Shown piece by piece: positions 8,852 to 49,370 of a stretch of DNA of 64,000 bases. The stretch is from the NCBI RefSeq assembly GCF_001949145.1, contig NW_019091362.1, forward strand, positions 1 to 64,000, in the 5' to 3' direction. A model generated the notes under the pieces. It saw only the letters and a list, made by a program, of their open reading frames with translations. It was not told where the DNA came from and did not search any database. This DNA is from Acanthaster planci. Taxonomy: Eukaryota. Both the position numbers and the translations under genes were made by a program. Within the stretch, counting starts at the first letter, position 1; each line of letters starts with the position of its first letter.

Positions 8852-11800
8852 CTTGCGGCGTTCTGACCGGCTGCACTCTTTTATCAAGGCTCTTAGCTCT
8901 CGAACTTGTCTCTCCAGTTCACGTGCTTCCATGCCATCTGATGGGGACACCCTTGTTTTGTTGATTGGCAAAATGTGCTCTGGGTACGCCTGATTAAAGT
9001 TCCACTGAACTGTATCGTGACAAGACTCTTTACCCTTTGGTGTTACATTGTATGCAACTGGCCCATTCCAGCTGAATCCCAGGTAAAACGTCACAGTTTC
9101 TTGGCTGGGAGTGTGTTTCAAGTACGGATATGCCAATTTAACCCTTATCTTCATGCCCTTGGAAAGATGAACCAGAGAGGTATTACTGAGAAGAGTACCT
9201 TCCAAGCGAAGTAGTAATTTCTTTACAGCCTTTGACTGCCAGAAATTGTCATGTTCAAGCTTTCTTTGAGTCGCAAGGATTTCGTGGATGTGAACGAAAC
9301 TCTGGAGATCTTTCCCGTGACCCAAAAAGAAATGGGTTCTTGGTTTCACATCAAAACGTGCGTGACGACTAAACTTGTCTTCGCGCGACGATTGTTGGCC
9401 AAGGTGCTTCTGCCGACCGATCCATCGGTTCTGTAATCTATCTATGTGAGTTGATAAATCTTCCCTATCCCTTCTTTCAGAGATTGCATCAGGTATTGGC
9501 CACAGAAACATCATCATGAAGAAAGGTGGCCAGCAGTCAGTTTTACTATGATCCAGAGTATTTAACGGCCTGACAAATTGCTGATATACCTCGTCAGCTG
9601 ACATTACTTGCTCCCCTGCTGAGGAGAGCGCCAGGTGTATGCATACAAGATGCCTCAAATCAAAAACGTTGTAATGATCTGAATTTGTCAAAAGGAGGTC
9701 CCGTGCTTCTTTCAGATTGGCCCTTTGACATTCTTTTGCCAGATTAAATATGTCACCAAAACTTCTGCACTGCAGTTTTATTACCNTTTCTTCGACGGCA
9801 CTCAGCAAGACTTTCTGGGTCTTGGTCGATGTCACTGCTCTTTTCTAAAGGTGAGGGTTCACCATAGTATTCTTGATATGTCTTTGAGTATGTTCTCATT
9901 TTTTCTCTCATTTCATCCAATTTCTGTCCGGCAACATTTGCAGAAGAGCCGTCCTTGTAAAATGTTAAGTTGTCATCCATGATATGTAGTACAGATTCCA
10001 CTCTCTGTTTCAATTCTCTGATTCTCGAGCTGCAATCCTCATCGAATTTGGGATAACAATCTGGAGGCAGACGTAGATTCAGGAGGTATTTTCGGAGAAT
10101 GTTTATATCACCCTTGGTTCGGAATGGCTCCATAGCACATTGGATGACGTTTAGTAGTCTGAAGGCGACATCCACTTCTGCATATAAACCGGTGTACTCT
10201 GTCTTTGCATGGTTTCTTTGGAGACATCATATGACTTGTGAAAGGCCTCCATGGCTTGGAATGACAGGGAGATAACTTGTTTACACACGTCAGAAGAAAG
10301 GACTTGTTGCTCAACCAAATATTTTTTTGTTATGGCATTGAAATGTGTATTGTACACTCGGCCTTTTGTATCCCAAAAGTATGACTTCTGAGGGTTAAGT
10401 TTCAATGCCTTCTCGGCAAACTCTACGGCCTTTCCGAAATTCTTTTCTTTCAAATGAAGTCTCGCAAGCTGCTGTGCAATGAAGGCATCCTGGAGTATTT
10501 TGAAACCTGTTTGTAGTATTTCAGTGGCCTTTTTTGGTCCTTGCTGGTTGCAATTGTAGACGTCCTGAATGAGACGGGAGAAATCAGTTTTTGTATTATC
10601 ACCAGGATTCAATCTTGTGCGTCTTACAAGTAGATCGCGTGCTATTTTTGCCATGTCTTTTCTGCGGTAGGACCATGACCTCATCAAGTCACTGTTCAAA
10701 TACTCCAGAGCTACGTCCGCAATCGTTTGTCTCTCATCCTTTAAGATCTGTTTTAAAGCTTCTTGAGCTACACTTTCATGCAGAATTTTAATCGTTCGGT
10801 TCTCTGTCATCAACACGATGATTTTGAAAGGGGCTGAAACTGACTTTTCCCAATTAGTCAAAACTCTGCGGTTTAAATATGCCGTCTTTTGGAGTTTCAC
10901 GCCAGCCTCCATGAATGAATCACAACATGAGATAGGGATTTCTGCTTCATGCATGTACGAGTTCAGAAAGGCACACATTTTTATCAAACCTTTCTCAGTT
11001 TTGTTAGCATCACTGTGACGAAGTATCTGAGACACAACATCTTTGATGTAGTCCTTGTTGAATTCCTCTTTCATGACCATAAAGGCGAGCAAGTTCTGAG
11101 GCTTATAATGACCCGTTTTTAGTTTGCTTTCCTTGTCATCAAGCTCAATGTACTTACTCTCGAACCATGCTCTTTCTGCTTCCGTAAGTTTTTGCACCAA
11201 TGGAACATAAAGATCCGAATTGGTTTTAATCTGCTTGATAGTTTCTATTGGATCCATGTTCCGCTTGCAATGAAGAAGAACGCAGACAACCCCTCCCTTC
11301 ATAGGAGTATCCTTTGATGCCTCTTCTAGCTCTACAATTAAATCCAGGACTTCAACGTCATCAAAATCATCGATTAGAACGCACACAGGAGGGATATCAG
11401 CATTGTACTCCGTATATCCGTACCGTCTACACCCCAATATTTGGTTTACCGTATTGGTGGTTATCTTGTCAACTACGATGCAACGGTGATCCTTGTGAAG
11501 TTCCCATAAAATCTGTCGGCCAAAAGTGCTACCTCCAGCGCCAGGTTGGTGCAAAAGAGTAACTGTTACGATTAAGCTGTCTTCGCTCTTTGATCGGTCA
11601 AGTGGTTTCACTACTTTCTGAAGTGTTTTCCCGAATCCATTTCGCTTTAGCACGTGCCCACAAGCATGTGGACGTTTTCTTTCTCTTTCATCTATGACAA
11701 AATTCCACCAGTCAATCTTTGCACCCCGGTAAAAGTTAAGTTCTTTCTTTTCTGCAAACTTTTGATAGCCTTGAATTGATTCATCAACATCGGTGTTTTC

Positions 11801-14800
11801 GCACTCGTTTTTGCAAATAACGGTTATGTCATTCCATTCTTCCTTCTGTTTAGCGGGAAGAAAGCAGGAATTTCCCGGCAAGCAGAAAGGGAGTTCATGC
11901 TGCCCAATTTGGTTTACTGCATGCATTCGCATCATAATACGGTTGATATCTTGCCATTTCAGTCCAACCACACTCCTCTCATCGATTTCAGCCTTGCTAA
12001 ACCACTTTTCCACACCTTTTACAAACTGTGCGTAAACATTCTCATCTTCAGTGATACATGTTATGTTCTGTATGCCTTGGAAAGATGAAGACATTTTTCT
12101 GAAAATGTCACAAACGATTCCCAGGTCCTGATCGGACAGGAGCAAGAACACAATAGCAGCACGTCCTTTTGGTATAACCGAAGAGAAGAAAGAGATTGAT
12201 GCTTCTACATCTCGGCTACGTTCTTTGTTCCATTCTTGCAGATCCATGGGAAGGCTTTCAATGGTTGGGTTGTCCTCTCGCCCGTTAGCGAAAAGCCAAA
12301 GTGTCTTTTCAGGAAATCCGATACTGGTTTGTAGATCTTCTTTTGACTCGATGTTTTTGAACAAATTTGGTTGCTGCAGAGTGACCATTCTATTGTCATG
12401 GTAGAGCTTACACAGTCCATCCGACAGAGACTGTGAATCAAAGTCCAAGACGCTTGCCCATTTGATTGTCTTAATAAATTCAACATTTCGGAAGTATTCA
12501 GTTTTAGAACTCTCCAAGGAAAGAGAGGGAGCTTTGTTTGCAACCAGTAACGGATACGACTGGTCAAGTTCTCCACACTCATCGCCCGTGAGTAAAGTAC
12601 GAAGTCTGGTTTCTCCGTTCTGTGATACTTGACCAATGGACGCTTTGATATCTGACGGAATATCGCGCTGTGTTTGCAAATATGTTGACGTTCCATGATG
12701 TTCTTCGTTATACTTTTTGGACGGCTGGGGCTCTGAAGTCATCTGGTTTCCAGGAAACTCTCCGCTTGTTTTGTGTGACATGGCCTCACTTGGTGAATCC
12801 GGAGAAAATTGAGGTGGTTTTACCCTGCAAACTGAAATACTCTCTCTTGGCACTGGAGAAAATGTTAGCAATGTGGTATCTTGTTTGCTCTTGCTTTCAC
12901 CTTCGTTGGTAGCCAATGGGTTCTGAAATGGTGTTATTCTATCTTCGGGTGGGATAATTATATCTGCCTCTGTGGATTCTTGGCCTCTGTTCTCTCCATA
13001 CAGTGCCCTTTCTTCCTTCTCAGATGCTTTTACAAGGGATGTTTGATGTTGCTCACTTGGTCCAATCTGCTTAATTTTCGTCTTCCTACCCGCCTCATCT
13101 TTCTGTCGAGAGGACGGCATTTTTGGACGGACCACGGGTTGGGATGCTGCCTTGGTATGGAGTTTTTCAGGTTTTTCAACAACTGCATCAGCTAATACCT
13201 GATCAGAATCCTCTTTGCTTTCCCCAGTAGAAGATAGCAACATTTGCTTACTGTTTGAAGGAGAGGTCAATTGACGCTTTTCCGATTTCAACCAGTTATC
13301 TTTATGATGTAAGATGAGTCTTATGTGCCCCTTTCTCATATCAAAATCTTCGTGTAGTTGGTCTTTGTTGTATATTTTTAACTCCTCACCGTTTATCTCT
13401 TCCTCATACAGCTCACGTGCAACAGAATCTGGTACACCAATACCAAGAAGCCACATTTTTACATGCTCCTTAGTCCAATCTGACATACGTACAGGCAACG
13501 TCTCTTGTTTTAGAGTATCTGCAAAAATAGTTTACATGAAATTTGGTTTTCGTGAAGAACATAGCATTCAAGTTATGCAACTTTGAATAATTTTGAAGAT
13601 AATTAAATACGACAGAGCCTAGTTTATGAACTGCTTTCAACCATTTCAATTGTAAGTGTGCGGAAATGACATGAGAAATTTGGCAATTCCTTTTAATTCA
13701 AGCACATTTAAATCACTAAATGACATAAAATTCTGTCGCAATTGTTGCAAGTGTGGACCCCACTCTGTGCATCAGGTATTAATTCTGAATACTTTCATAA
13801 CTTAGATATTTTCAATATGAGCGATTCCTAATACGGTGCGCAAAGAAGCGTTTGCCGCAGACAGGCCACTTTTCAAGTTCATGATCGACTTGCTACCGCG
13901 ATTAAGCGCAATTCATACGTATTTTGGGAATATTTGATTGAGGCGCTCCCTACACAACAAAAAAAAATCATGTTGACTACCTAACACCTATTTGCTATTA
14001 ACAGTTTCCAATTTTCAACCAAGATCAACAAAAATTCAGAAACAATTCAAGTTTTCTGCCCAAAGCGCAGTTAGCGAATGAGTTTTTTGACTATTTGTCT
14101 CACTATGCAATGCAAAAAGGCCTGTCCATGACGACCTCTTGGTTGCGTACTGCATTGTGAATCGCCTTTAGTAATAACATCATATGCTTTTTACCTCGTC
14201 TTTTAACAGTCAAGTAAAACAACTTGTATGAGTGACAATACGTTATTCACCCCTTTCGACATCTTTTCGACTGCAAATTTACCTTTTTGTAACTTTTCAA
14301 AGAATCTGCAACCTTCCTGGTAATCACTTTCAAGTATTGTCACTTTGATGGCCATGTTGCTCTTGTCTTCCGTTGTAAGTTCATCAGTAATCAGAATCTC
14401 GGTGAACGTCTTGGCTAGTTCGCCACTGGTGTACATGTTCCACAGCTTATGCAGACCTTTCTGACTTTTGACGTGCAAAACAAGTTTCACAGACCCCATT
14501 TGAGCATGTGCAACCTCCGCGTCGAATTCAACAAAAGCTTTTGTGAAAAGGGTCATCATGTGGGTCTTGCCATGTTGCCGTAATCCGTGTTTTATCATTT
14601 GCACGATTGTTGCATTGCTTTCTCTGTGGGTCTCTCCATTTTTCATTGCATCGACATCTACTGGTATCTTTGCTGGAAAACGTAATAAGTTAATTAATTC
14701 ACAGTTAGAAATTTGTGATAACGTGAATGCTCCAAAGCAATATTCATTCAATATTCATCAAATGTGTGTTTAATTTGCCATAAACAGCGGTACCGTAGTT

Positions 14801-17800
14801 AATCTGGATATTCGTAGTCGGAAATTGTTATTCAAGGAGGGTTGGCACAGGTTTATGGAGTCGGCAAAAAATTGTCACTAATTGAAACTGATATTAGTAT
14901 ATTTTAGTTTGTTAGTTTAGGTAAACTTACACCTAGATTTGTGAAAAATATACCCACAGTAAACAGAACATCAACAATGTTTGGAAACATATTGGTGAGA
15001 CTGCCAAATATTTCGAAATATCCAGCATGTACCGTAGTTAAACGAAGAAGCAACTGCGGGGCCAAGTATAATAGGGCTATTGGTGACTCCTTTAATGGTC
15101 AAGTTTTGAATTTGAACGCTTGATTGTGTAGGCCTGTTGGGATCAGCAGCATAGCCGCTCGTCGAAGACGATTTCTGAGACAATGAGGGGCTTTCTTCAC
15201 CAGCTGAGACGTCTTCCTGCGTTGGCTTTCGTTCAGGTTCCAGTCGCTTTTCTGTAGAATGCGTGAACCAAGTGAAACATTGAGTGAAAACAACACAACA
15301 ACAGATTTAAATGGCGCAACATGTGACCTTAAAAATAAACTGTTACAGTGAAAGCACATTATAATTTCGATTAACCTACTGCACTCGACATTTCGATTTA
15401 AAAGTTTCTGGGAATGCCTATCAACAGCATGGACACCTGGTGAAGATGATATCTGATATGCTGAGGAGTGTTCTTCAGATGCCCAGGCATCTTCTGACGT
15501 TAGATTTTGTTTAGGTTCCTGTTGCTTTTCTGTGAAACAATAAGAAGGAAAGCAGTGAGTCTTAATTGAAGCTCAGCTTAATATTCAGTAACTCTTAAAA
15601 ATACAAGGATTTTTTGATGCGCGGAGTGTAAGAGAAACTTTGAGTTTCAACAAATTGGTGCGCATATTTTGTGGCCACTTTAAAAAAAAAACAAATTAAA
15701 CCCATACGACATGTTTAGATAATCTAAATTAAAACGCTTTGAGAAATGCTGAGCCGATTTCACAAAGCTGGATGTTACCATGGAGAAGTATCCGGTTTGT
15801 CATTTAAACACATCCCTGAAAGCGCTTCGAAAAAATCTGGATACAAAAAAAGTGTGAACCTGTTGTGCTATTTCCACAGCGTGTAATTTCACAAAATGTG
15901 AATAAAGACTTACATGTAGTTCAGATAAATTCATAGCACAATGTGTTAACATTTAATCAATTTTGTTTTCCTGTTGTCCTAACTTCAGTGGAGTTCATTG
16001 AATATGTCAATGCCATGTTCAGGTAGCGTGGCGTATCTTGGTCTTTAGGCTACGAGGGATATGAGGCAAAACGGGATATTTTTCCCCAAAATAAATTTCC
16101 CATATTTTCACAGTTAAAAGAGCCCTCATCCTCCCCGTGGTAATACTACTTCATATGCTAGCGCTTTCCATTCCGAGAAAAAAGTGGAAGCAAGTCTTCA
16201 GGGGAACTTACCCCACCCCTCTCCTCTGAATATGGGTCATCAATGCATTTCTATTACCGAGTGATTGTTTCTTAGCATGCGATATGAGGCATTAGGCCTA
16301 CCTGATTTTCGTTTCTTTTTTCTCCCACCCATCAATCCAGAAACAAGGCGCAGTTCTATGGTAGCGTCATGTTCAATGCTGTGATCAGCTATGGACAGGG
16401 CATCACAAAGCTGTACATCAACAGAAATGCAATGACAGATAAAACATCAAGCACATGTTCAAAGGTAAGCACAAAGAACGGACTTCATGAAGACATAAAG
16501 CGTTAATTGAAGAAAAATTTTCCACTTTAATGAAAGACTGACATATTTTGCTTGACGTACCTCACAAATTTCTATTCTTCCCCATAGAAAGTTTGCACGG
16601 CTGCCATCTTGCAGGGCAGTTCTTTTGTTCCACAGTGTATGCACAAAAAGAAGTTTCCATGTGGAACAACACACCTGCCCTGCAATATGGCTACCAGGCA
16701 AATCCTCTATAGTGTAGAAAACTCCGGAAAGGAGTACGTGTTTGAGTACATTTGTAATACGATAACGCTAACATACCATGCTTTTTATCACGCCGCCTCA
16801 GGTAATTCTTAGAGGAATATCATTTTAAAATCATCATACAAACTAGATATTTGTCATCACAGAATCCAAATTGCATATTGAGAAAACAGCAACACAAGGA
16901 AAGGTCCTTCGAACAGTGTAAAGAGGAGTCTTTGGTATAAATTAAAAACAAGCCCTGTGTGTAGTGAATGTTGTACACATTATGCATTTCATATTCACCT
17001 CAAGGCCTTTACGGGTGAATAAATGTTGCTTCTCAGAATCGATGCCAAGTCTCTCTTGTAACAATCTCTTAAGATCAGCGACTGAGGTGGACGGACGCAG
17101 TTGCAGACAGATAGAGGATGCCCAAGAAGTGGAAATGAAGATTTGGATCTTCCGTGTTTTGGTGCTTTGACTGGAACTAGTAAGGTGATAGTGGAAACAC
17201 AAAAAAATGAAGGATATACATGTATCTTCTTAAGTTGAAGCTGAATATGCAAACGCATAAATGCACATGTGAAAAATGACGTAAGNNNNNNNNNNNNNNN
17301 NNNNNNNNNNNNNNNNNNNNNNNNNNNNNNNNNNNNNNNNNNNNNNNNNNNNNNNNNNNNNNNNNNNNNNNNNNNNNNNNNNNNNNNNNNNNNNNNNNNN
17401 NNNNNNNNNNNNNNNNNNNNNNNNNNNNNNNNNNNNNNNNNNNNNNNNNNNNNNNNNNNNNNNNNNNNNNNNNNNNNNNNNNNNNNNNNNNNNNNNNNNN
17501 NNNNNNNNNNNNNNNNNNNNNNNNNNNNNNNNNNNNNNNNNNNNNNNNNNNNNNNNNNNNNNNNNNNNNNNNNNNNNNNNNNNNNNNNNNNNNNNNNNNN
17601 NNNNNNNNNNNNNNNNNNNNNNNNNNNNNNNNNNNNNNNNNNNNNNNNNNNNNNNNNNNNNNNNNNNNNNNNNNNNNNNNNNNNNNNNNNNNNNNNNNNN
17701 NNNNNNNNNNNNNNNNNNNNNNNNNNNNNNNNNNNNNNNNNNNNNNNNNNNNNNNNNNNNNNNNNNNNNNNNNNNNNNNNNNNNNNNNNNNNNNNNNNNN

Positions 17801-18864
17801 NNNNNNNNNNNNNNNNNNNNNNNNNNNNNNNNNNNNNNNNNNNNNNNNNNNNNNNNNNNNNNNNNNNNNNNNNNNNNNNNNNNNNNNNNNNNNNNNNNNN
17901 NNNNNNNNNNNNNNNNNNNNNNNNNNNNNNNNNNNNNNNNNNNNNNNNNNNNNNNNNNNNNNNNNNNNNNNNNNNNNNNNNNNNNNNNNNNNNNNNNNNN
18001 NNNNNNNNNNNNNNNNNNNNNNNNNNNNNNNNNNNNNNNNNNNNNNNNNNNNNNNNNNNNNNNNNNNNNNNNNNNNNNNNNNNNNNNNNNNNNNNNNNNN
18101 NNNNNNNNNNNNNNNNNNNNNNNNNNNNNNNNNNNNNNNNNNNNNNNNNNNCCATGAGTTCATGGAAAAAGTATGTATTATGTTCTCCCGCTGAATTGTT
18201 ATAAGTCTTAGTGACTAGACATTTTACTCGCTAAAAATATATATTCCGCGGTGGTTGCAAATACAACTGCATGGCAATGCTTTGATGATGTCAAACGACA
18301 TCGTACTAAAAATAAGTGCTGAGGAATTGCTGTGATCAGAATAAAAACTAATGATGTTGATCCATTTTGCTCTTTGTTTGCAGTCACCAGTTCTTAGAAC
18401 AGCACCTTCTTGCGCTTCTTGCTATATGAAAGTGCATTCGATGGATCAATAGAACTGCACTGAGTGTACCATGCTGAGATGCTGTTTGACTGACACTTCT
18501 GAGAATGGATAGGCTAAATCAAGGGCGATATTTTACTTCAAGTACGAAAACTACGAGCAATTGCAAAAAAGGACTGGTGGCTATATCACCCAATTAACAA
18601 TTGAAGTTAACCTTATTTTATTTACCTGCGTTTAGAATTTAATACTGTTGCTTGTGTATTCTGAGCACCAGGCGACGTTGGAGTTTCAATTTCTGATGAG
18701 GCATTATTAAGAGGGCGTTTCGTTGACAGCACTGAGAGAAAAGCCTTTTGCTTAGACTTCCGAACACCTTTCGTTCCGGTTACCAACTTGGCCTGCGAGT
18801 GGTCATAAGTGACCCGGGCGACCCTCACCGCCTCCTCCCAATCTGCATATGTCTTCAAAGTCAT
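8852..18864 (-). CDS. SAMD9-like: SAMD9-like STAND NTPase gene A. Exons: 18864-18626, 17176-16999, 16410-16302, 15529-15437, 15251-15033, 14672-14283, 13518-8852; terminal exon unresolved. Two apparent frameshifts (~10210 and the n at 9786).
   Basis: SAMD9 motifs: LLTGD..LD..Y.LLVANK, IKWASVLDFD, WLFANGR, ICKNECE, FYRGAKIDWWNF, P-loop HQPGAGGST..QILWEL, Walker B VLIDD, FMVMKEEFNKDYI, AFIAQQLAR, SYFWDTKG, VTFYLGFSWNGPVAYNV. All junctions are GT-AG with compatible phases (2,0,1,1,1,1,0), and every exon except 15529-15437 has a counterpart in gene B. Confidence 0.88.
13300..13498 (-). other. SAM domain of gene A
   Basis: DWTKEHVKMWLLGIGVPDSVARELYEEEINGEELKIYNKDQLHEDFDMRKGHIRLIL fits the SAM pattern W..E.V..WL..IG...EEI.G..L. 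Confidence 0.85.
14283..14672 (-). CDS. Gene A exon encoding a TRADD-N-like domain
   Basis: AEVAHAQMGSVKLVLHVKSQKGLHKLWNMYTSGELAKTFTEILITDEL; phase 1-1 exon homologous to 38165-38551. Confidence 0.65.
16302..17176 (-). CDS. Gene A exons 2-3 (17176-16999, 16410-16302) encoding a ubiquitin-like domain ending LMGG
   Basis: IQIFISTSWASSICLQLRPSTSVADLKRLLQERLGIDSEKQHLFTRKGLE|LCDALSIADHSIEHDATIELRLVSGLMGG-RKKKRKS aligns along ubiquitin. Confidence 0.85.
18626..18864 (-). CDS. Gene A first coding exon
   Basis: MTLKTYADWEEAVRVARVTYDHSQAK... is homologous to 35317-35561; cag|gtaaat donor, phase 2. Confidence 0.8.
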
Positions 18865-33061: not shown

Positions 33062-33444
33062 ATTTTTGGTAGCCTTGTATTTCTGACCAACAATTCATAA
33101 ATTGACTTTAAATTATAGGTTCGTTCTATTGGAAGCTTTACTCAAAACTAGAGCAAGTTCAAAAATACCTGCCGTGTTGGGATACAATTGTGACTCCTGC
33201 AATTTTCTTTATAATTTCCGTATATATATATCAAGGAATGAGGTTTGAGACACATAAACTGGATTTGATGTGATTATAAGAATTCTTATTTATTAAACCT
33301 CCGATTCAAACAATCCCTTTCAAGTTAGTCTTTGCGGATGATTGTTTTGTTTGTAACACAACCGTGTTTAGCAGTACTACCGCGGGATACTCCTACTCCC
33401 TCCCGCTTGTGCTCCTTCATTACACGATTTTTACATTCCCGTTG

Positions 33445-35316: not shown

Positions 35317-38300
35317 ATGGCTTTAAAGACGTATGCAGACTGGGAGGATGCTGTGAGAGTCGCCCAGGTCACCTATGACCACTCGCAGGCTAAGATGGTC
35401 ACAAAAACAAAGACGGTACGGAAGTCGAGGAAAATGGCTTTCCTCTCCGTGCTCTCACTGACCAAGGGTGGCGTTTCATCAAAGCAAAGCATCAACAAGC
35501 ACCCCACTTCTCCGCCAAAGAGGATAAAACAAAGAGTGAACAAATCCGCAGGAAAGATGTGGTATGTGTATATTTATTAAGGTGATATTATGAGGAAAAG
35601 AACCCCGAATGTTTTACAAGCATCGTGAAAAATTGTAATAGACGTCCTCTATGATATTTAATCTTCCCTTGGTGAACAGATCTATGACGCCGATCGTCAA
35701 CAGATTTTCCTGTGCTCTTAGCACAAAAGTCATTAAAGTGAATACTTGCTTTTGCAACTTTAACTGGCTTAATATTAAATTGTGCGCACGGTTGGGCATT
35801 AAATGTGTTGGTTTCTTACCTTTTCCTGTCCAGTGTGAAACAGGGAAGTGCGTGCTGCATACAGATAATAATTGATACTCCACTCGTGTCAACAGTTTGC
35901 CTGCAACTTCCTTCTTCAACCTCGATTCTAGCTGTGAAAGAACTACTTCAAGATAGGCTTGGAATCAGTCCTGAAAAACAACATCTTTGTACGAAGAGAG
36001 GATTTGAGGTCAGTGACAAAAACACAGTATACCATGCAATTAGTGCAGTTAGCAAATAATTTCGGTTTAGATCACTTTGAGTTTCTATTTTCAATAACTT
36101 CAGTATTTCCTATGCAAGCTGCACGAATTAGATGGGGTGTTATGTCAGTGGATTGAATATTTTTTGACTTAATACAATCAATTCTATTCAAACTGAAGTA
36201 GGCCTTTGGCTTCTAACAGCTGTTGCCATTGTGTAGCGGGTGCTCTATATCACCTGTGCATAAATCACATCTTCAATAAATCTTTAAATATCTTGCCGTC
36301 CCTATTTATTCAATGTTATCATGGCCTACGTGACAGTTGGTCTTTTTCGTGTGAACTGTCTTTTTCGACGGTGGTCTTGCAATCCCGCTACTGTTTATTG
36401 TTCTAAATGCACCCTCAACCCATTAAATTTTATTCGCAAAGAAACCACAGGAAAAGGTAGTAAGCTTGTACCCAATTGCTGGTCTAGACTTATACCCTAC
36501 TCTGCTGCCAAGGCCTTCTCACGCGCGTATATAAAAAAAAAAATTGGACTTGCAGTGCCTTGAATCAGCTTTTCGAGATCACTGAATCCAGTTACGGTCA
36601 CTTTACCTAGCCGAATACAAGGCTTGCCCGGCAATGCCCGCCTTTGTTCTCCCTTGCGTCAATAGAAGCGAGCCAACCCGCACATTCGTATTCGGCTCGG
36701 TAAAGTGGCCGCTTTTTCATACAAAGGCGTAGCAAGTCCAGGTTTTTATATACGTCCATGGGCTATCTAGAATTACCCAGTAACGTGCCTTCTGGAAAGC
36801 CACAAAGCTTCAAAGAAGTCCAACAGCATTTACAGGGTCGTTTATGGGTCACAGGCAGGGTCTGGGCAAGCTAGGCAGCGCTTGTGTGAACAACCTTGAT
36901 GACTGCCATCTGGAAGATGTTTGTACACATTCCCATGGGAATTGGCCAGACCCCAGCTCGGTTATATTTTTTCTGGCTAAGGGGAAGCCCCTATGTTTAC
37001 GGTGACTAAACCAGGCAGTTCGGCATGAAGGTAGGATATGAAAGGAGGTGATCATAGTTGGCCGTAAAATTTTCTTTCATCAAGTAATTAGCAGAAACTC
37101 CGTCTAAAAAAAGACGGTGGGCGCTCCACGCAGGGTTTCAAAAGTAATAATAATAGCTACATATATTTGTTATTTCTGGAACCAGCTCTGTGACGCACTT
37201 TCACTAGCGGATCACAGTATTCAGCAAAATGCCAACATAGAATTGCGCCTTGTCTCCGGCTTGATGGGTGGAACACGTTAGTATCCATTTACATTTTTTC
37301 AGTGTTTGCTTTAAATTGACTTTTAATGATTAATTTTGCTGTCAGGATACAAATTAGTTGTATTTTGAAGAGTAAGGGCACATCTCTTGCTTCAGAATAT
37401 GCAGACATCAGACGTAATATGTTCAGCCTCCCCTGGAAAAGATGTTGTGTATAATTTAGTTGTTGATCAATGTGACAATGCAGGGAAGCAAAAAGACAAA
37501 GCAGAGCAGCGGTCACCAGATTTTTCGAGTAAAGAAAGAATCCCTGATCATGGAAGACAAGATGATACTCAGCAAGACCCAACTGCACCTGATGAACAAC
37601 CATCATCCTGTACCAGCAACACATGGGAAAACACCGTCATGCAGGGCCACTCAGAAGGCATCACATTTGGGGAAGTACACTCACGTACCAATGTCTATGG
37701 TATGTATGTAGGGCCTATGTGTGCTTAAATTTAAAGATCTAAATTTACATAAGATGTAATACAGGAGAAATTATCGTTCACTAATTGATAGAGTTCGTCC
37801 GACATTTGAATTATTGCAACTGTCAAGTGCACTATTTCGATATCCAAAATAGGAGCTATCTGACGTATAATATGACCATAAAAATGTGGAGAAACTGAAA
37901 GGCATTTTCCGGTAAAATAATTTCAACGGCCAGTTTCCTTTGTACAGTAAGCAATAAATGTGCCTCTAAAATAAGCATGAAGCTTTATGATTATGACCAC
38001 GTGTTGGCTACTTATTCAAGAAAAGTTATATCTGTTTCTGAACCACACGATTTTGTGGTCGCACATCGGGAGGAAACAAAAAATTAATTTTATACAATTC
38101 TTCAACCTCAGAGCAACACTCTTTTGCACAGATTACTGAAGCTAAATAACTATTATTTCAACAGCATTACCAATTACTGCATGCGTTTCAAGAGATGACA
38201 GGATCGATGATTATTTGACAACAGCCGTAATCGATACCCTGAAACTACTGGCAAGTCAGTCTGGAGTGAATGATGTGAAAAAAATGTTCAACGACGTTTT

Positions 38301-41300
38301 GGAGGCATGTGCCGGAGAAATGTATCGAGTAGAGTTTGGGCCCTTGAGGTTTATTACGCATGTCGAAAGTCGTGCCGGCCTTGAAAAACTGTGGGCTATG
38401 TTCTCCACCGGGGAGCTCGCGCAGAAGCTAACTAAGGTCCTAATAACAGATGAACTTACAACAGAGGAGAAAAGTAGTATCGTCATTCAGGTAGAAATAC
38501 TTCGAGAACATTACGAGGAGGGATGCCAATTCTTTGAAGAATTACCAGAAGGTACAAACATATATTTTGCATTACGCGTGTGTTGCAACATTTTAGGACA
38601 AGTGACATTGGTTATTAGTATCAATTGAAAACAGAACCTTTGATTCAGAAGGAGATGAGTCAAATGGCATTGGAAATTTCGTCCCAGTATGTTAGACTTT
38701 CCAATTTAATTTGCGTTTCGAGTTCTGTTTTTCAAGCTCTAATTTGTTTCCATTTTAGAGACTACTTCGGCGGATCAACCGGTGCATATGTCTGAGTGGT
38801 CCAAATACGACGTGAAACACTGGCTAAAAACTATTGGTGTATCAGATGTGGTCATTGATAAAGTATTCGACGAGGCAATTGACGGGAGGGTGTTAATCTT
38901 GTATACATCAAATGATCTGCAAGAAGATTTCAACATGAACAAGCGAGACTTACGTCTCATTTTGTACAAACGGGAAGCCTTAAAACGCCAACCCAAGTTG
39001 AGTCCAAACCCAAAAGAGAAAGAAGTTGTTGAGTACAAAGCAGAACGTGCACTGGTTCAAGTACATCCGATTCAGACATCCCCAAGCCCATCTGACACAA
39101 AAACAAATCAAACTGTAACCGATATGCCAGAACTGTCAGTTCGGCCTAAAATACCAAAATCCAAAGCGATATCTTTACTAAAGAGGGGGCATCTGGAGAC
39201 AAAACACACTCAACCAGTTCAACGTCTTCATCAGAATATCGCTAAGGTACCCAACGTTCAAGATGACCCCTTAAACCCTGCAAAAGGATTTGAACTTTCT
39301 TTAGATTTACCTTCTGAATATAAAGGAGCCCATGTTTCACCACAAAGACTATTGACAGCCAAAAGTGGGCAAGATCCTCTTGAGGTGACTCAAAAGATGA
39401 TGGAATTAATTTCACTAGCTCCTCAACCATCTACAGACAACCAACAACAAGATGTTGCATTCATGATACTTGGCAAATCTCGAGCCCAAGAACAGGGGTC
39501 AAATCCTTCCTTACAGGTCAATTACCCAGAACAATATCGCGACGAAAATGGAAAATTGACGCCAGGGGATCATGAAGCAAGCTCAATTTCGCCTACTACA
39601 CTGGATGCATCACCGAGAACAAATGTGGAATTTGACGATGCACAAATTCATGATGACAAAAACTCTGACAAGGTAAAAGAGCAAGCTCGTGATCAGGGAA
39701 CACCATCACAAGCGTGTCGAAACGCAGCATCGTCCAGCAAATTTGCTTTGCCTGTAACAAAGTTCAGTCAAAGTGACGAAGCTAAGGTTCGCTTACTTCT
39801 TACAGGAGATGAACGTGGAGAGCTTTCCCAATCGTTATACTCCGTTCTCGTAGCAAATAAGCTGGACGCCCCAAGTGAACCTACTGAATCTAGAATTGAC
39901 ATCATTGCCCAACAGTTTGAATTCATCAAGTCCATCAAATGGACAAGCGTCTTGGACTTTGATTCACAGTCTCTGTCGGATGGACTGTGTAAGCTCTACC
40001 ATGAGAATAGAATGGTCACTCTTCAACAACCGGACTTGTTCAAAAACATCGAGTCAGAAGAAGATCTGCGAACCAGTATCGGATTTCCTGAAAAGACACT
40101 TTGGCTTTTCGCTAACGGTCGAGAGGACAACCCAACCATCGAGAGCCCTCCCATGGATCTGCAAGAATGGAACAAAGAACGTAGCCGAGATGTAGAAGCA
40201 TCAATCTCTTTCTTCTCTCAGCCTTCGGTTATACCAAAAGGACGTGCTGCTATTGTGTTCTTGCTCCTGTCCGATCAGGACCTGGGAATCGTCTGTGACA
40301 TTTTCAGAAAAATGTCTTCATCTTTTCAAGGCATACAAAATATCACATGTATCGCTGAAGATGAGAGTGTTTATGCACAGTTTGTAAAAGGTGTGGAAAA
40401 GTGGTTTAGCAAGGCTGAAATCGATGAGAGGAGTGTGGTTGGACTGAAATGGCAAGATATCAACCGCATTGTCATGCGAATGAACGGTGTGAACAAAATC
40501 GAAGCCTACGAACTCCCTACACACATTCCAGAAAAGTGTTTCCTTTCTGAGAAACAAAAGGACGAATGGAATGATATAACCGTTGTTTGCAAAAATGAGT
40601 GCGAAAACACCGATATGAACGAATCTAACCCGGGTTATCGACGGTTTGCAGAAAAGAAAGAATTGAACTTTTATCGCGGTGCCAAAGTTGACTGGTGGAA
40701 TTTTGCCATCGGAGAAAAAGAAATGAATCTTCATAGACGTTGCGGCCACGTGCTGAAGCGAAAAGGATTCGGAGACGTACTAAGGAAAGTCCGTAAACCC
40801 CTGGACAGTTCAAATACTGAGGACAGTTTAATTGTCACTGTGACACTCCTTCATCAGCCAGGTGCCGGGGGTAGCACGTTAGCACGCCATATTTTGTGGG
40901 AGCTCCGCCAAGAATTCCGTTGTATTGTCGTCAACACGGTCACTGGCAATACTGCAAGTCAGATAATGGAGGTGAGACGGCATGGATATGAAAAAGGTTG
41001 CAATCAGAAAATCCCTGCTGTATGTGTACTCGTGGATGACCTCGATGATGTTGAGCTTCTAGACTTGATTGATGAGGTGAAGGAAGTTTCTAGAGATATC
41101 CAGCTCGATGGTGGGGCAGTTTGTGTCGTCCTGCGCTGTAAGCGTTGTGCGGAGCCAGAAACGTTAACAGACGGTGAAAGGAGAGAGTTGTACATTGCTT
41201 TGACTCAAAAGCTTGACGCCCGAGAAAAGGAATGGCTGGAGCGAAAGTACCGTGAATTACAATTAAAGGAGAAAGAATTACAATCTACCGAGTACAAACC

Positions 41301-44035
41301 TGAACATCTCCTCGCATTTATGGTGATGCTGAAAGAATTCGACAAGGACTATATAACTCATGTTGTGTCGGAGATTCTTGGTGGAATCTCTGAGAACGAA
41401 TTCAAGTTGATAAAGCTATGTGCGTTTCTGAATTCCTACAGACCAGAGGCCGCCATTCCTATTTCCTGTTGCGACTCAATGATGGACAGAAAGATACTAG
41501 TCAGTGGCAGAACGCGTGTACACTCGAGACCCTGGGAAGGTTCAGTGTCCTCCTCGTTCAAGATCATGGTGGTCGTGGAAAACAACGAACTTAGGATCTT
41601 CCATGAGAGAATAGCAAAAGAAACTTTGGAGCAGATCCAGATGGTTACAAATCAGTCCCTTACAGAGGTTGCACTGGAGTTTTTGAATTGTGAACTGTTT
41701 AGTTCGTGGTCATATTCCAAAGAAACCCTCGTTAAAGCAACGCATGACCTACTTGTCAGGAGAAAAAGGATCCGATTCGGTGATGACACCGAGACAGACT
41801 TTGCGGTTATCATTCAAGATATTTACGAGAATCATGGACCTGAAAAAGCAATCGAGATCCTCCAAGTAGGCTTTGAGAAGCTGGAAGATGCATTCATCGC
41901 TCAGCAGCTTGCGCGACTTTGTCTTAAGGAGCACAACATTGGGATGGCACATATCTATGCTGACAAAGCAGTGACGCTTGAACCCCAAAACTGCTACTTC
42001 GTTGATACTAAGGGCAGAATTTACAAAACAGAGATGTGGGATATCGTGTCAAAGCGTATGGAAGAACAGCAAGTTATCGATGATAAAGAATGCGATAAGT
42101 TACTTTCCCTTGCATACCATGCAATGGACGCCTTCCACAAAACATACGACGTTTCTAAAAAAGGAAGGGAGATCGAGTACACGGGTTTGTATGCCGAAGT
42201 AGATGTTGCCTTCAGATTACTGCAGGTCATTTACACTTGTGTAGAGCCCTTCAGAACAAAAGGTGGACAAAAATATTTGCAGGAATACCTTCTGCAATTG
42301 ATCAACCCTTCAGATCCAAGCTATCCAAAACTGAGTGAAGACTGTCATGGCCGCATCATGACTTTGAAAAACCGAATAGACTCTGTGCTAAACTTACTTG
42401 ATGACACCTCAACATTCTGCAAGGGAGATCCCACAAATGAGCAACAGAAACTTGATGAGATGAAAGATCGCTTGAAGGAGTACTTCAGAATATACGAAAG
42501 ATACTATGGAGAACCAAAGCCGATACAACAAAATCGGTATCGAAATCCTAGAAGTCTTGCCGAATCTCGACGTCGGCAAGTCAAGCAAGCCAGTTGTGGT
42601 ACCTTTCGTGAAATATTTGACCTTGCTCGAAATAAGGGATTGCAGAAGCTCAAAGAATCTTACAAACTGCTGTTAGAGAACTCAGATCAGTACAACTTTT
42701 TCGACTTGAAGCATCTTGTTTGCATACACTTGGCGCTCTCCTCAGCTGGGGAGCAATTATTGCCAGCTGATGAGGTGTATCAGCAGTTTGTTCGGCCGTT
42801 GAATGCCAAAGATCACCGCAAAACAGACTGCTGGCCACCTTTCTTCATGATGATGTTTCTGTGGCCAATAGAGGATGTTACCTCTGAAAGACGAGATAGC
42901 TGTGATTTGACCTTTTACATTGATGAACTAAGAGAGAGATTTTCAGGTGCTGAGAATTTCAGGAAAGGTTTGACTAGCGAAAAGCGACCCCCGCGATTTC
43001 AGACAAGAGCACGAACACACTTTTTCTTGGGACAAGGCACAGATCTTCAAGTATTTGCCCATATCAATGAGCTCCACACTACTCCAGGTAAAATCGACGG
43101 AGCAGACAGCGAAGATGATTTTTGGTCGTCTGATCTTGTAAGAAGTCGATTAGCTCGCTTGGAAGGAACTTTACTGAATCCTACATCCCTGGTGCACCTC
43201 TCTAAGAAGGGAAAAATCAACATCAAACTGGCAGCGCCGTTTAAACGTCAAGTGCCAAGCCAAGAGATCGTCACGTTCTACCTCGGATTCACCTGGGATG
43301 GCCCAGTTGCGTATGATATTAAGGTAAAGGGGAAAGAATCTCGTGACGGTACAGCACCACGCTTTCACCAAGCTTACCCAAGTTTGAACGTACCTTCTGA
43401 AAAATCCAAGACTTCACTTTCCCGTAAGTTATCCAAGATTGATAAGCTTCGGGAGGAATGCCAAAAGCTGCGAGGCAAACTGGAGGGCGTAAAAGCTTCT
43501 TCTAAACACCATGTGAAAGTCAAAACCAAAGAGGTACCGGTAAATATTTTTCTATTATTAATCAGTCTATTTATAACTGGGATTTACTGTATGTCCAGTT
43601 CCGCACCATTTCCACCTCTCGACCATCGAACGTTGCTTGACTTGAATGTAGTGCACCTTCGGGTACCAAAGTGATAATCAATTAGCCTTATCTGTGGGAC
43701 TTCACGAACGGAAATCAGTGAATTCCTTCACTTTTTATATTTGGTAAAGACCTTATGAAACATTTCATTTCTTAATTTATTAATATAACACTGTCAAAAG
43801 AGATAGGCACGATACTTGTGTGTAAAAGCATTCGATAGATACACTGATCTTGTATACATTATACTCCATTACACAATGCCAAGCAAGAACATGATTTACT
43901 TACATCGTTTGGCAGGGATGTGTTTGGAAACCCACGAAAGACGCGATTCAGTTGTACAAGCGCCAGTTGGAGGAAAAAAACGATGAACTTCGTCGTGCTT
44001 TAATGGAAGACACGTCATCAACGGAGGACTTTTAA
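35317..44035 (+). CDS. SAMD9-like: SAMD9-like STAND NTPase gene B (~2000 aa). Exons: 35317-35561, 35834-36008, 37186-37276, ~37484-37699, 38165-38551, 38759-~43539, 43916-44035.
   Basis: Uninterrupted 1630-aa ORF with SAM (EWSKYDVKHWLKTIGV), IKWTSVLDFD, FYRGAKVDWWNF, HQPGAGGSTLARHILWEL, VLVDD, AFIAQQLAR and FYLGFTWDGPVAYDI. The exons join in frame (6015 nt, GT-AG). The exon 4 acceptor and the large-exon donor each have in-frame alternatives. Confidence 0.92.
35834..37276 (+). CDS. Gene B exons 2-3 (35834-36008, 37186-37276) encoding a ubiquitin-like domain ending LMGG
   Basis: IQIIIDTPLVSTVCLQLPSSTSILAVKELLQDRLGISPEKQHLCTKRGFE|LCDALSLADHSIQQNANIELRLVSGLMGG-T. Confidence 0.85.
38165..38551 (+). 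CDS. Gene B exon encoding a TRADD-N-like domain
   Basis: GEMYRVEFGPLRFITHVESRAGLEKLWAMFSTGELAQKLTKVLITDEL; phase 1-1 exon. Confidence 0.65.
43916..44035 (+). CDS. Probable terminal exon of gene B (GCVWKPTKDAIQLYKRQLEEKNDELRRALMEDTSSTEDF*)
   Basis: tttggcag acceptor; phase 0 matches the upstream donor; 40 open codons with coiled-coil-like composition. Confidence 0.6.
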   Translation, partial: GCVWKPTKDAIQLYKRQLEEKNDELRRALMEDTSSTEDF

Positions 44036-48599: not shown

Positions 48600-49370
48600 C
48601 AGACACTGGTTGTTCTGCGACAGTCTGTACAAATCTGGCCGCTCGTCGTTGGACTGCTTCCAGCCAATTTTTATGGTTAAAGGAGATATAGATCCAATAT
48701 GCTGGCGCAGTATTCCAGTTTGGGTCTAACCAAGGTCTGCTGAATGAGCGCAGCTATACAGGTCTCTGCGAAGGAATCCAAGAACCTTGTTCGCCTTTGA
48801 AGTTGTGTTGTTTTAATCAGCCCAGTTCTCCCCCCCTCCCCCGATTAGTATGACTTTTGAACATTTTAAGGGGTTTCTTGTTCATACAATAAATTAATTG
48901 AAGTGGCTGTAATTGTGAGAAATGCCATGGTGTAGTACTTGGCAGTATTAAACTTCACTTGCCAGCGGGACTCCCATTTGCAGAGGATAACAATATCTTT
49001 CTGCAGTCCTTGTTAATCCTTATCGAAGAATATCTAACGGTATAATATGTCATCTGCCAGGATCCTCACTTCTTGTGAAATTCCTTCTGGTAGGTTATTT
49101 AGATATAAGATGAAAAACGGCGGCCAGTACAGTATCTTGGAGAACCCCAGAAGTAACACTTATGGATGACGATGACACTCCTTCCAAAACAACTTGCTGA
49201 GAACGCTTCGCCGACCCCCTTGTGTAGTGATCCAGTGATCCCCGCTTGCTTTAGCTTCAGCCAGAGTCTTTGGTGAGGAACAAGATCAAAAGCCTTGTTA
49301 AAATCCATAATCATTACGTCAGCTTGGACTTGGTTATAAAGAATTTTGTAAAGATCACGCACGGAAAGGG
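48600..49370 (-). mobile_element. Decayed LINE (CR1/L2-like) reverse transcriptase fragment, copy 1
   Basis: VQADVMIMDFNKAFDLVPHQRLWLKLKQAGITG; LVRPKLEYCASILD. Confidence 0.85.

What the first reader, a model, noticed from the sequence alone, without database searches (positions are those of the whole stretch)
35834..37276. Internal ubiquitin-like domain with a conserved di-glycine end (ELRLVSGLMGG)
The Ubl is split over two exons in both genes. Its last 11 residues are identical in A and B although flanking regions diverge strongly. Known: Ub/Ubl precursors are cut by DUB/ULP proteases right after GG. Inference: the sensor could be cleaved here, exposing a conjugatable Ubl or a new N-terminus, or GG could be a tripwire for viral deubiquitinases. 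The Ubl is preceded by ~85 aa, so it is not at the N-terminus.
Basis: partly seen in the sequence, partly recalled or inferred. Interest (0 to 1): 0.75.

Follow-up and report, generated by a model that had tools for sequence, protein, structure and literature searches.

The report
Ubiquitin-like GG leader on starfish sensors
Two neighbouring crown-of-thorns starfish SAMD9-like immune genes begin with a ubiquitin-derived domain whose Leu-x-Gly-Gly end is kept unchanged across starfish SAMD9-like and NLR receptors, which likely marks a protease cutting site that would control these sensors.

Summary
The window is Acanthaster planci. It carries two head-to-head SAMD9-like genes, A on the minus strand and B on the plus strand. 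Each opens with a conserved about 45-residue N-terminal motif, a variable linker, and a ubiquitin-like domain split over two exons that ends ...IELRLVSGLMGG. RNA contigs and reads confirm the splicing of both genes. The domain descends from ubiquitin itself: it aligns end to end with Ub 1-76, GG falls on G75-G76, and the model is a beta-grasp with TM 0.87-0.91. Between A and B the 12 tail codons carry 5 synonymous and 0 replacement changes, so the identity reflects selection and not recent gene conversion.

The new result is that the same leader heads other starfish SAMD9-like proteins and many NACHT-LRR/Death-domain receptors, in four species of two superorders. Of 34 such domains, 26 end G-L-x-G-G. 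L73, G75 and G76 equivalents are 3 of only 8 invariant columns. A tail-less sister subfamily shows that the fold does not need GG.

Cleavage after GG by a deubiquitinase-type protease is my best inference (about 0.45) but is untested. An uncleaved adaptor domain and a pathogen-protease tripwire remain open. The domain annotation already exists in databases. I found no paper describing the conserved leader or its LxGG end.

The parts
35317..35561 (+). Gene B exon 1. It holds the start codon, the conserved N-terminal motif (predicted helix plus a basic ...VRKS.K.AFLS stretch) and the start of the variable linker.
   Evidence: tblastn of P0001 at 100% identity. RNA joint 35560|35833 with cut +1. 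The motif is conserved in relatives.
35834..36008 (+). Gene B exon 2. It holds the end of the linker and the first part of the ubiquitin-like domain, roughly Ub residues 1-49.
   Evidence: Pfam ubiquitin E 3.3e-4 on this exon alone. RNA joints on both sides.
37186..37276 (+). Gene B exon 3. It holds the second part of the ubiquitin-like domain, ending ...IELRLVSGLMGG-T. The donor site follows one base later.
   Evidence: RNA joints 36006|37184 (+2) and 37276|37484.
37267..37272 (+). The Gly-Gly codons of gene B (GGT GGA). They align with ubiquitin G75-G76.
   Evidence: Sequence read directly. Profile alignment to ubiquitin.
37484..37698 (+). Gene B exon 4. It holds the basic stretch right after GG (R-KQKDK...) and a low-complexity linker.
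   Evidence: P0001 sequence. RNA joints 37276|37484 and 37698|38164.
38164..38551 (+). Gene B exon 5, a TRADD-N-like domain.
   Evidence: Pfam TRADD-like_N E 0.0037, which is below the curated cutoff. RNA joints.
38757..43533 (+). Gene B large exon. It holds the SAM domain and the SAMD9-family core with its P-loop (...HQPGAGGST...).
   Evidence: Open frame of 1643 aa. Homology to SAMD9-like proteins of echinoderms, molluscs and fishes. tblastn.
18626..18864 (-). Gene A exon 1, holding the start codon, the N-terminal motif and linker.
   Evidence: RNA joint 17176|18626.
16999..17176 (-). Gene A exon 2, holding the end of the linker and the first part of the ubiquitin-like domain.
   Evidence: RNA joints 17176|18626 and 16410|16999.
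16302..16410 (-). Gene A exon 3, holding the second part of the ubiquitin-like domain and ending ...IELRLVSGLMGG-RKKKRKS. The GG codons are 16329-16324.
   Evidence: RNA joints 16410|16999 and 15529|16302.
14290..14672 (-). Gene A TRADD-N-like exon.
   Evidence: Pfam TRADD-like_N E 4.1e-4, below the cutoff. tblastn. RNA joint 14672|15033.
8867..13525 (-). Gene A large exon with the SAM domain and SAMD9 core. In the window it has two frame breaks, near 10204 and at the N at 9786.
   Evidence: tblastn frames -1/-3/-1. Three-frame view. Both extra letters are absent from other runs.

Best explanation
The region encodes a genuine ubiquitin-derived domain inside the N-terminal leader of a SAMD9-like STAND protein, and its invariant Leu-x-Gly-Gly tail is most likely a recognition site at which a deubiquitinase-type host protease would cut the leader from the receptor body.

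Shown directly:
- The domain, its split over two exons and its expression on one mRNA with the receptor.
- Its descent from ubiquitin.
- Purifying selection on the tail.
- Reuse of the same leader (N-terminal helix/basic motif, linker, Ub-like domain with G-L-x-G-G) on SAMD9-like and NACHT-LRR/Death receptors of four starfish species.

Inferred:
- The tail is kept because a Ub-tail-reading cysteine protease binds it, as in ubiquitin-ribosomal fusions and in SDE2, which USP5 cuts after its Ubl.
- Cutting would release the part N-motif+Ubl and leave a receptor that starts with a small residue followed by a Lys/Arg-rich stretch.
- This step would act as a maturation or licensing switch.

Whether cutting is constitutive or induced, and whether the freed leader stays bound, is degraded or is conjugated, is not resolved.
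For: 1. It is a ubiquitin homologue.
- The profile of 8 leaders aligns positions 91-169 with Ub 1-76, at about 45 bits and i-E about 1e-10 per unit. Ubiquitin and polyubiquitin entries lead the PDB list of 300 matches.
- phmmer gives 39% identity to polyubiquitin units.
- AlphaFold2 gives a beta-grasp at residues 90-162 with pLDDT 85-93 and a lower-confidence tail near 60.
- The top-ranked Foldseek hits are ubiquitin or engineered ubiquitin variants, with TMt 0.87-0.91 and rmsd 1.1-1.6 A for single-unit chains.

2. The tail is selected.
- A versus B shows 12/12 identical residues with 5.0 synonymous and 0 replacement changes.
- In 26 domains whose pairwise identity goes down to 33%, only 8 columns are invariant. 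Three of them are the L73, G75 and G76 equivalents.

3. There is an internal control. Six 'first Ubl' domains of double-Ubl NLR/Death proteins lack the tail entirely, so the fold does not need GG.

4. The tail is conserved across two superorders: Valvatacea (Acanthaster, Patiria) and Forcipulatacea (Asterias).

5. The residue after GG is small or variable (G9, T7, A5, R2, D, V, C in 26 domains) and never Pro. The next 12 residues are 36% Lys/Arg against 14% background.

6. There is precedent. The SDE2 Ubl is a diverged N-terminal Ub-like domain cut after GG by USP5, and the GG and tail residues are needed for that cut (PMC13572447, passages read).
Against: - No cleavage data exist, and nothing here measures protein.
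- The R72 and R74 equivalents are Gly (25/26) and Met/Leu/Arg. The tail is 2-4 residues longer than ubiquitin's. General DUBs may therefore not accept it.
- The N-terminal motif is itself under strong constraint (dN/dS 0.12) and always sits in cis with a receptor. That fits a permanent receptor part as well as a cleaved one.
- Two Patiria proteins carry two internal Ubl-GG units each. Cutting at every GG would chop them into pieces.
- Two of 28 tail-type domains have lost GG (P0104, and the first unit of P0044).
- The absence of Pro after GG is not significant. The chance of none in 26 at 4.1% Pro is about 0.34, my arithmetic.
- The 26 domains are not independent. Several are isoforms or close paralogues, with identity up to 99%.
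Confidence: 0.45

Rival explanations
1. The Ub-like domain is a permanent, uncleaved part of the receptor. On this reading the N-motif plus Ubl act as the signalling or regulatory adaptor at the position where other STAND receptors carry Death, CARD or Pyrin domains. For example, receptor oligomerisation could present an array of Ub-like surfaces to ubiquitin-binding partners or to the proteasome. The G-L-x-G-G segment would then be a conserved hinge or binding epitope.
For: - The leader sits exactly where effector or adaptor domains sit. Several NLRs (P0170, P0107; also P0200 and P0201 by precomputed Pfam) show no Death or CARD hit.
- The N-motif is strongly conserved in cis.
- The R72/R74 equivalents and the lysines are lost.
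- Kaur et al. 2021 list Ub domains among modules fused to TRADD-N proteins of marine invertebrates, without invoking cleavage (PMC8195603, passages read).
- Internal repeated Ubl-GG units occur in P0050 and P0054.
Against: - By established knowledge (recalled, not tested here), integral Ub-like domains generally lose the GG.
- Within this same family, the tail-less first Ubl shows that the fold and an internal position do not require GG.
- The L73, G75 and G76 equivalents are as invariant as the fold core, which a mere hinge would not explain.
Confidence: 0.3
2. The tail is a bait, in the sense of an integrated decoy or tripwire. Host deubiquitinases would ignore the altered tail, which lacks R72 and R74. 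Pathogen LXGG-type proteases or deubiquitinases would cut it, removing an inhibitory leader and switching on the SAMD9-like or NLR receptor.
For: - The same bait-like module sits on two unrelated classes of innate immune STAND receptors.
- What is kept is exactly the minimal L-x-G-G, while the Arg residues used by many host enzymes are replaced.
- Protease tripwires exist in NLRP1 and CARD8 (PMC7857732 and PMC10249858, search listing and abstracts only).
Against: - No FIIND or other self-cleaving domain was found in the 14 proteins scanned, so NLRP1-style release by N-terminal degradation cannot apply as such.
- NLRP1-type baits evolve fast, whereas this tail is frozen.
- No starfish pathogen protease is known to me.
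- Nothing here tests cleavage.
Confidence: 0.15
3. The GG is an inherited relic of the ubiquitin-fusion gene from which the cassette arose and has no present function.
For: The domain clearly descends from ubiquitin. For Ub-S27a/eS31 fusion entries, the profile alignment runs 7-8 positions past GG into their basic extension. That would fit an origin from such a fusion gene.
Against: - Synonymous sites between A and B are near saturation, yet the tail has no replacement change.
- The tail is retained across two starfish superorders and across receptor classes.
- A sister subfamily has lost it.
Confidence: 0.05

Closest known systems
SDE2 (N-terminal Ub-like domain cut after GG by USP5)
   Same: Both have a diverged ubiquitin-like domain placed in front of a functional protein, a conserved GG, and tail residues that matter for recognition. 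In SDE2 the cut releases the active C-terminal part (PMC13572447, passages).
   Different: - Here the Ubl is preceded by about 90 residues that include a conserved motif.
- The host proteins are immune STAND receptors.
- The Pfam Sde2_N_Ubi hit is weak (E 0.0027, 18.6 bits against a cutoff of 26.4, on one exon).
- The residue after GG is not the Lys used by SDE2.
- Cleavage is untested.
Ubiquitin fusion precursors (polyubiquitin, Ub-eL40, Ub-eS31/S27a, FUBI-eS30)
   Same: The domain is homologous to ubiquitin over its full length, with GG on G75-G76. A Lys/Arg-rich stretch follows GG, as in Ub-eS31.
   Different: - It is only 29-38% identical to ubiquitin.
- The R72 and R74 equivalents and 6 of the 7 lysines are replaced.
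- It carries an N-terminal extension.
- The partner is a 1,800-residue receptor, not a ribosomal protein.
NLRP1/CARD8 protease tripwires and plant NLR integrated decoys
   Same: A protease-recognisable element sits N-terminal to a STAND immune receptor. The idea that cleavage reports pathogen activity could apply here.
   Different: - No FIIND was detected.
- The element is a folded Ub-like domain with a frozen tail, not a fast-evolving linker.
- No pathogen enzyme is known.
SAMD9/SAMD9L family
   Same: The body of both genes is homologous to SAMD9-like proteins. E is 0 to starfish relatives, 3e-178 to sea urchins, and 1e-104 to 1e-74 to molluscs and fishes. It has a SAM domain and a P-loop.
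   Different: Vertebrate members start with SAM. Mekhedov et al. 2017 list SAM, CARD, Death, Pyrin and FIIND as N-terminal variants, and the word 'ubiquitin' does not occur in their text (PMC5445408, term search). These starfish members add the N-motif, the Ubl and a TRADD-N-like domain in front.

Membership tests
Ubiquitin family (Pfam PF00240, beta-grasp) | Significant sequence match to the ubiquitin profile | tested here: met
   - P0001 scores E 2e-5 and 24.7 bits, just under Pfam's 25.4 cutoff.
- Relatives score above it: P0054 48.6, P0103 56.8 and P0128 31.1 bits.
- The profile of 8 leaders against PDB gives about 45 bits per ubiquitin unit, i-E about 1e-10.
Ubiquitin family (Pfam PF00240, beta-grasp) | Beta-grasp fold | tested here: met
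   The AlphaFold2 model has residues 90-162 at pLDDT 85-93. Foldseek finds ubiquitin chains at TMt 0.87-0.91, rmsd 1.1-1.6 A and probability 1.00. This is a prediction, not a solved structure.
Processed ubiquitin-type precursors / type-I modifiers | C-terminal Gly-Gly in register with G75-G76 and followed by further polypeptide | tested here: met
   This holds in 26 of 34 family domains.
Processed ubiquitin-type precursors / type-I modifiers | Ubiquitin-like tail residues L71-R72-L73-R74 | tested here: not met
   L73 is invariant (26/26). The R72 position is Gly in 25/26. The R74 position is Met 16, Leu 4, Arg 3, Ile 1, Lys 1. The tail is 2-4 residues longer.
Processed ubiquitin-type precursors / type-I modifiers | Actual cleavage after GG by a DUB/ULP, and conjugation through E1/E2 | not testable with these tools
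   This needs protein work. No stand-alone gene ending at GG appeared among the 150 listed hits or the 10.
SAMD9/SAMD9L family | Homology over the AlbA-SIR2-P-loop-TPR-OB core | tested here: met
   One search found 43 hits. Fish SAMD9L-like proteins score E 1e-97 to 1e-74 over 69-76% of the 1643-aa exon. The Walker A-like GAGGST is read directly. The sub-domains were not tested one by one.
NLRP1/CARD8-type tripwire sensors | FIIND/ZU5-UPA self-cleaving domain that lets the C-terminal part be freed | tested here: not met
   There was no FIIND, ZU5 or UPA hit in the 14 proteins scanned at E up to 0.01.
NLRP1/CARD8-type tripwire sensors | Fast-evolving bait region | tested here: not met
   The tail shows 0 replacement against 5 synonymous changes between A and B. 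It is invariant for L, G and G in 26 domains.
SDE2 family | Match to the Sde2 N-terminal Ubl profile and an SDE2 C-terminal part | tested here: not met
   There is only a sub-threshold hit on one exon (E 0.0027, 18.6 bits against a cutoff of 26.4). No Sde2 hit appeared in full-length scans.

The most novel reading that the evidence does not exclude
Starfish have turned a ubiquitin copy into an integrated decoy. An L-x-G-G bait is mounted on the front of both SAMD9-like and NLR receptors. The bait is blind to host deubiquitinases because R72 and R74 are gone. It is cut by pathogen LXGG proteases or deubiquitinases, so that removal of the leader arms the receptor. This would be a DUB-sensing tripwire shared by two unrelated immune receptor families.
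Probability: 0.13. Interest if true: 0.9.

Novelty: new variant of a known kind. Interest (0 to 1): 0.62.

Why it matters
SAMD9/SAMD9L and NLRs are central innate immune switches, and how they are held off and released is an open question. This starfish cassette puts a ubiquitin-type L-x-G-G end in front of both receptor classes. It offers a concrete and easily tested hypothesis of proteolytic control by ubiquitin-tail-reading proteases, whether host licensing or pathogen sensing. Patiria miniata embryos can be injected (my knowledge, not checked here), so the GG-to-AA test is practical.

The finding would also add a case to the short list of diverged Ub-like domains that direct cleavage of their own protein, such as SDE2 and FUBI. 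It documents exon-cassette reuse between immune gene families.

Tried and rejected
- The genome search 'own': no genome is held for this window, so cassette copies in the A. planci genome could not be counted and intron phases in the NLR genes could not be compared.
- The search of earlier findings by place and by words gave nothing.
- ESM Atlas with residues 1-176: the best scores were 0.85-0.87, below the 0.9 level the tool treats as meaningful, and the hits were only generic ubiquitin-like clusters.
- The look-up of sequencing runs: no RNA holder is listed on record. I laid guessed-RNA contig runs and 2026 raw RNA reads instead.
- Pfam on exon 3 alone (30 aa) and on exon 4 gave no family.
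- N-degron idea: the residue after GG varies (G, T, A, R, D, V, C), so no single N-end rule class fits.
- Caspase-site idea: an x-x-T-D|G motif precedes the tail only in the double-Ubl NLR subgroup and not in the SAMD9-like genes.
- 'No proline after GG' as evidence: it is not significant, at about 0.34 by chance.
- Literature: no description of a Ub-like leader on SAMD9-like proteins or on starfish NLRs was found.
  - Term look-ups inside PMC5445408, PMC12680541, PMC8195603 and PMC8662601 were.
  - Supplementary tables of these papers were not read and may list the architecture.
- Complex prediction was not used. No binding claim is made.
Full report
WHAT THE WINDOW IS

The window is eukaryotic, with introns and assembly gaps. 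The 1643-aa open frame at 38743-43674 is 100% identical to 'sterile alpha motif domain-containing protein 9-like isoform X2 [Acanthaster planci]' (P0001, 2002 aa, accession). tblastn of P0001 against the window shows two paralogous genes placed head to head. Gene B lies on the plus strand from 35317 to about 44035. Gene A lies on the minus strand from 18864 down to about 8867. Their large exons are about 51% identical.

CHECK OF THE OBSERVATION

In gene B the ubiquitin-like domain lies on exon 2 (35834-36008) and exon 3 (37186-37276). The frame reads ...IELRLVSGLMGG-T and is followed by a GT donor.

RNA-type contigs and raw RNA-seq reads give the joints 35560|35833, 36006|37184, 37276|37484, 37698|38164 and 38549|38757, each with GT..AG ends. 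One 2255-nt contig runs from exon 1 into the large exon. The Ub-like domain and the receptor are therefore translated as one protein.

In gene A the corresponding exons are 17176-16999 and 16410-16302. The joints are 17176|18626, 16410|16999 and 15529|16302, and a single 1114-nt contig crosses them.

A degenerate pattern for the 11 residues matches exactly twice in 64 kb against 0.00 expected.

Between A and B:
- The tail is identical for 12 residues, with 5.0 synonymous and 0 replacement differences.
- The first 62 domain residues are 40/62 identical.
- The linker is not alignable.
- Synonymous divergence elsewhere is near saturation (pS 0.53-0.84).

The identity is therefore maintained by selection and not by recent gene conversion.

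WHAT THE DOMAIN IS

Pfam finds 'ubiquitin' on P0001 at E 2e-5 and 24.7 bits, just below the 25.4 cutoff. Relatives score clearly above the cutoff, up to 56.8 bits.

A profile of eight leaders aligns positions 91-169 with ubiquitin 1-76, GG on G75-G76, at about 45 bits per unit. Ubiquitin itself, rather than another Ub-like protein, leads the PDB list. An exhaustive phmmer search gives 39% identity to polyubiquitin units.

AlphaFold2 was run with 8 sequences and gave a mean pLDDT of 66.9. It predicts a helix at residues 6-25, a disordered stretch at 42-80, a beta-grasp at 90-162 with pLDDT 85-93, and a lower-confidence tail. Foldseek returns ubiquitin chains at TMt 0.87-0.91.

Compared with ubiquitin:
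- The Q2, K27, Q41, L43, L50, L73, G75 and G76 equivalents are kept.
- The R72 position is Gly.
- The R74 position is mostly Met.
- The lysines at 6, 11, 29, 48 and 63 are mostly replaced. K33 is Lys or Arg.
- The tail is 2-4 residues longer.

THE WIDER FAMILY (THE MAIN NEW RESULT)

The first 176 residues of P0001 recover more than its orthologues. Beyond the polyubiquitins that fill most of the 150 listed hits, they recover a set of starfish proteins that share the whole leader. That leader has a conserved N-terminal motif (...LKT..D.E.A...A...YDHS.AK.V....VRKS.K.AFLS...), a variable linker and the Ub-like domain.

By their source names and Pfam content these proteins are:
- SAMD9-like proteins of A. 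planci, Patiria miniata and Asterias amurensis.
- NACHT-LRR proteins named NLRC3-, NLRC4- or NLRC5-like, or uncharacterised, from A. planci, P. miniata, A. rubens and A. amurensis.
- Death-domain proteins.
- One protein with a hydrophobic stretch that looks like a membrane span by eye; this was not tested.

I hand-picked 25 such proteins: 24 from the database plus my gene A reading. Some are isoforms or close paralogues. I did not pass the other 190 stored proteins, nearly all polyubiquitin-like, to the domain search. hmmsearch finds 34 domains in the 25 proteins:
- 26 end G-L-x-G-G.
- 2 have a decayed tail.
- 6 have no tail at all. These are the first Ubl of proteins with two Ubls, each followed by a Death domain.

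In the 26 tailed domains, pairwise identity runs from 33% to 99%. Only 8 columns are invariant, and three of them are the Leu and the two Gly of the tail. The residue after GG is G9, T7, A5, R2, D, V, C. The next 12 residues are 36% Lys/Arg against 14% overall.

All named carriers are Asteroidea, from two superorders. The sea-urchin SAMD9-like hits (P0012, P0013) lack the leader in their current models. Hits beyond the 150 listed could not be seen, so absence elsewhere is not shown.

HOW IT MOST LIKELY WORKS

The only established reasons for keeping an L-x-G-G end on a ubiquitin-fold domain are recognition by a tail-reading protease and, after that, activation for conjugation. This is established knowledge of ubiquitin, NEDD8, ISG15, Ub-ribosomal fusions and FUBI, and it is recalled here. 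For SDE2 I read passages of PMC13572447. They show that USP5 cuts after the GG of a diverged N-terminal Ubl and that the GG and tail residues are required.

The tail here is selected as strongly as the fold core. A sister subfamily in the same proteins has dropped it. On these grounds I consider cleavage after GG by a deubiquitinase-type host protease the best single explanation, at confidence 0.45.

It would separate the N-motif+Ubl from a receptor that then begins with a small residue and a basic stretch. That stretch looks like a nuclear-localisation or nucleic-acid-binding patch, which is inference only.

What speaks against it:
- The Arg residues used by many enzymes are gone.
- The N-motif is itself highly constrained and always in cis.
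- Some proteins carry two internal units.
- Nothing here measures protein.

RIVALS

(a) An uncleaved adaptor or regulatory domain occupying the slot of Death or CARD domains (0.30).
(b) A bait for pathogen LXGG proteases or deubiquitinases (0.15). This is attractive because the minimal L-x-G-G is kept while host-type Arg residues are lost, and because two receptor classes share it. However, there is no FIIND and the tail is frozen, unlike NLRP1 baits (listing and abstracts only).
(c) A functionless relic (0.05), which the selection pattern contradicts.

COMPARISON WITH PRINT

Mekhedov et al. 2017 describe SAM, CARD, Death, Pyrin and FIIND at the N-termini of SAMD9 family proteins. A term search finds 'ubiquitin' 0 times in that paper. 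A 2025 evolutionary study of SAMD9/9L has none of six terms, including ubiquitin, echinoderm, starfish and invertebrate. Kaur et al. 2021 mention Ub and Ub-ligase domains among modules fused to TRADD-N proteins in marine invertebrates and cite starfish expansions, but 'SAMD9' occurs 0 times. A survey of invertebrate NLRs mentions ubiquitin only in its reference list.

The domain is flagged automatically in databases: PF00240 and the UniRef name 'Ubiquitin-like domain-containing protein'. The presence of the domain is therefore known in that sense. The conserved leader cassette, its L-x-G-G end and its sharing between SAMD9-like and NLR receptors were not found in print by searches. Supplements were not read.

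SIDE RESULT ON GENE A

In the window its large exon changes frame near 10204 and at the single N at 9786. The N is left out in 16 of 16 raw RNA reads of X23, which otherwise match the window, and in DNA contigs of X3 and X5. Two letters at 10204 are left out in contigs of X3, X5 and X15, which belong to a variant differing at 91 of 2468 positions. X23 does not cover that place.

Gene A is expressed and spliced and is probably intact, at least in that variant. No database protein matching gene A at near-identity appeared.

VERDICT

I rate it a new variant of a known kind (UBL-directed processing, or an integrated decoy) in an unexpected place, with interest 0.62.

Noticed in passing
window 9786 and 10204 (gene A large exon, minus strand): The window has two apparent frame breaks in gene A. 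The single N at 9786 is absent from 16/16 RNA reads and from two DNA runs. Two extra letters at 10204 are absent from contigs of three runs that carry a variant differing at 91 of 2468 positions. These are probably assembly errors or an allele difference, not a dead gene.
   Followed up: yes
window 17170-17176 (minus strand): There are tandem acceptors (..ctag|ttccag|..) at the start of gene A exon 2. The RNA joint uses the upstream one (17176), which adds two Ser residues relative to the downstream site.
   Followed up: partly
window 36597-36850 and 16268-16955: Introns inside the Ubl of both genes hold repeats with very high depth in all runs. Short contigs reach depth 850-960 and show 'opposite strands' joints and many loose ends. 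This looks like a multi-copy inverted-repeat transposable element that is also transcribed elsewhere.
   Followed up: no
window 35920: A C>T difference in one RNA-type run (X15, one contig, depth 9) would change the Thr of the P-S-S-T stretch of the Ubl to Ile. That position is invariant in the 8-sequence alignment A1.
   Followed up: no
window 37273-37276 plus 37484-37520; gene A 16323-16302: A Lys/Arg-rich stretch directly follows GG (36% K/R in 26 domains). For Ub-S27a/eS31 fusion entries in PDB, the profile alignment runs 7-8 positions past GG into their basic extension. This hints that the cassette may descend from a Ub-S27a-type fusion gene.
   Followed up: partly
P0010 (Asterias amurensis SAMD9-like isoform X3), residues 1-10: An annotated isoform starts at the Met of the ...LMGG tail and so lacks the whole leader. 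P0089 (A. rubens, 208 aa) is an annotated isoform consisting of the leader plus 19 residues. Both are predictions of the annotation pipeline.
   Followed up: no
window 35313: One RNA-type contig carries 40 unmatched letters just upstream of 35313, four bases before the gene B start codon. This suggests a separate 5' untranslated exon further upstream.
   Followed up: no
window 15251|15425 versus 15251|15437 (gene A): Two alternative joints occur in RNA reads for one gene A intron. One of them has 9 unmatched letters between its sides.
   Followed up: no
window 32492-33094 (-), 49099-49383 (-), 52304-52609 (-), 68-694 (-): These open frames look by eye like transposase- or reverse-transcriptase/gag-derived sequences, in the 16-kb spacer between the two genes and downstream of gene B. 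They were not tested against any library.
   Followed up: no
P0050 and P0054 (Patiria miniata), residues 55-134 and 452-642: Each of these proteins carries two complete Ubl-LxGG units separated by several hundred Lys/Arg/Ser-rich residues, ahead of a NACHT-LRR body in P0054. This is a polyprotein-like arrangement.
   Followed up: partly
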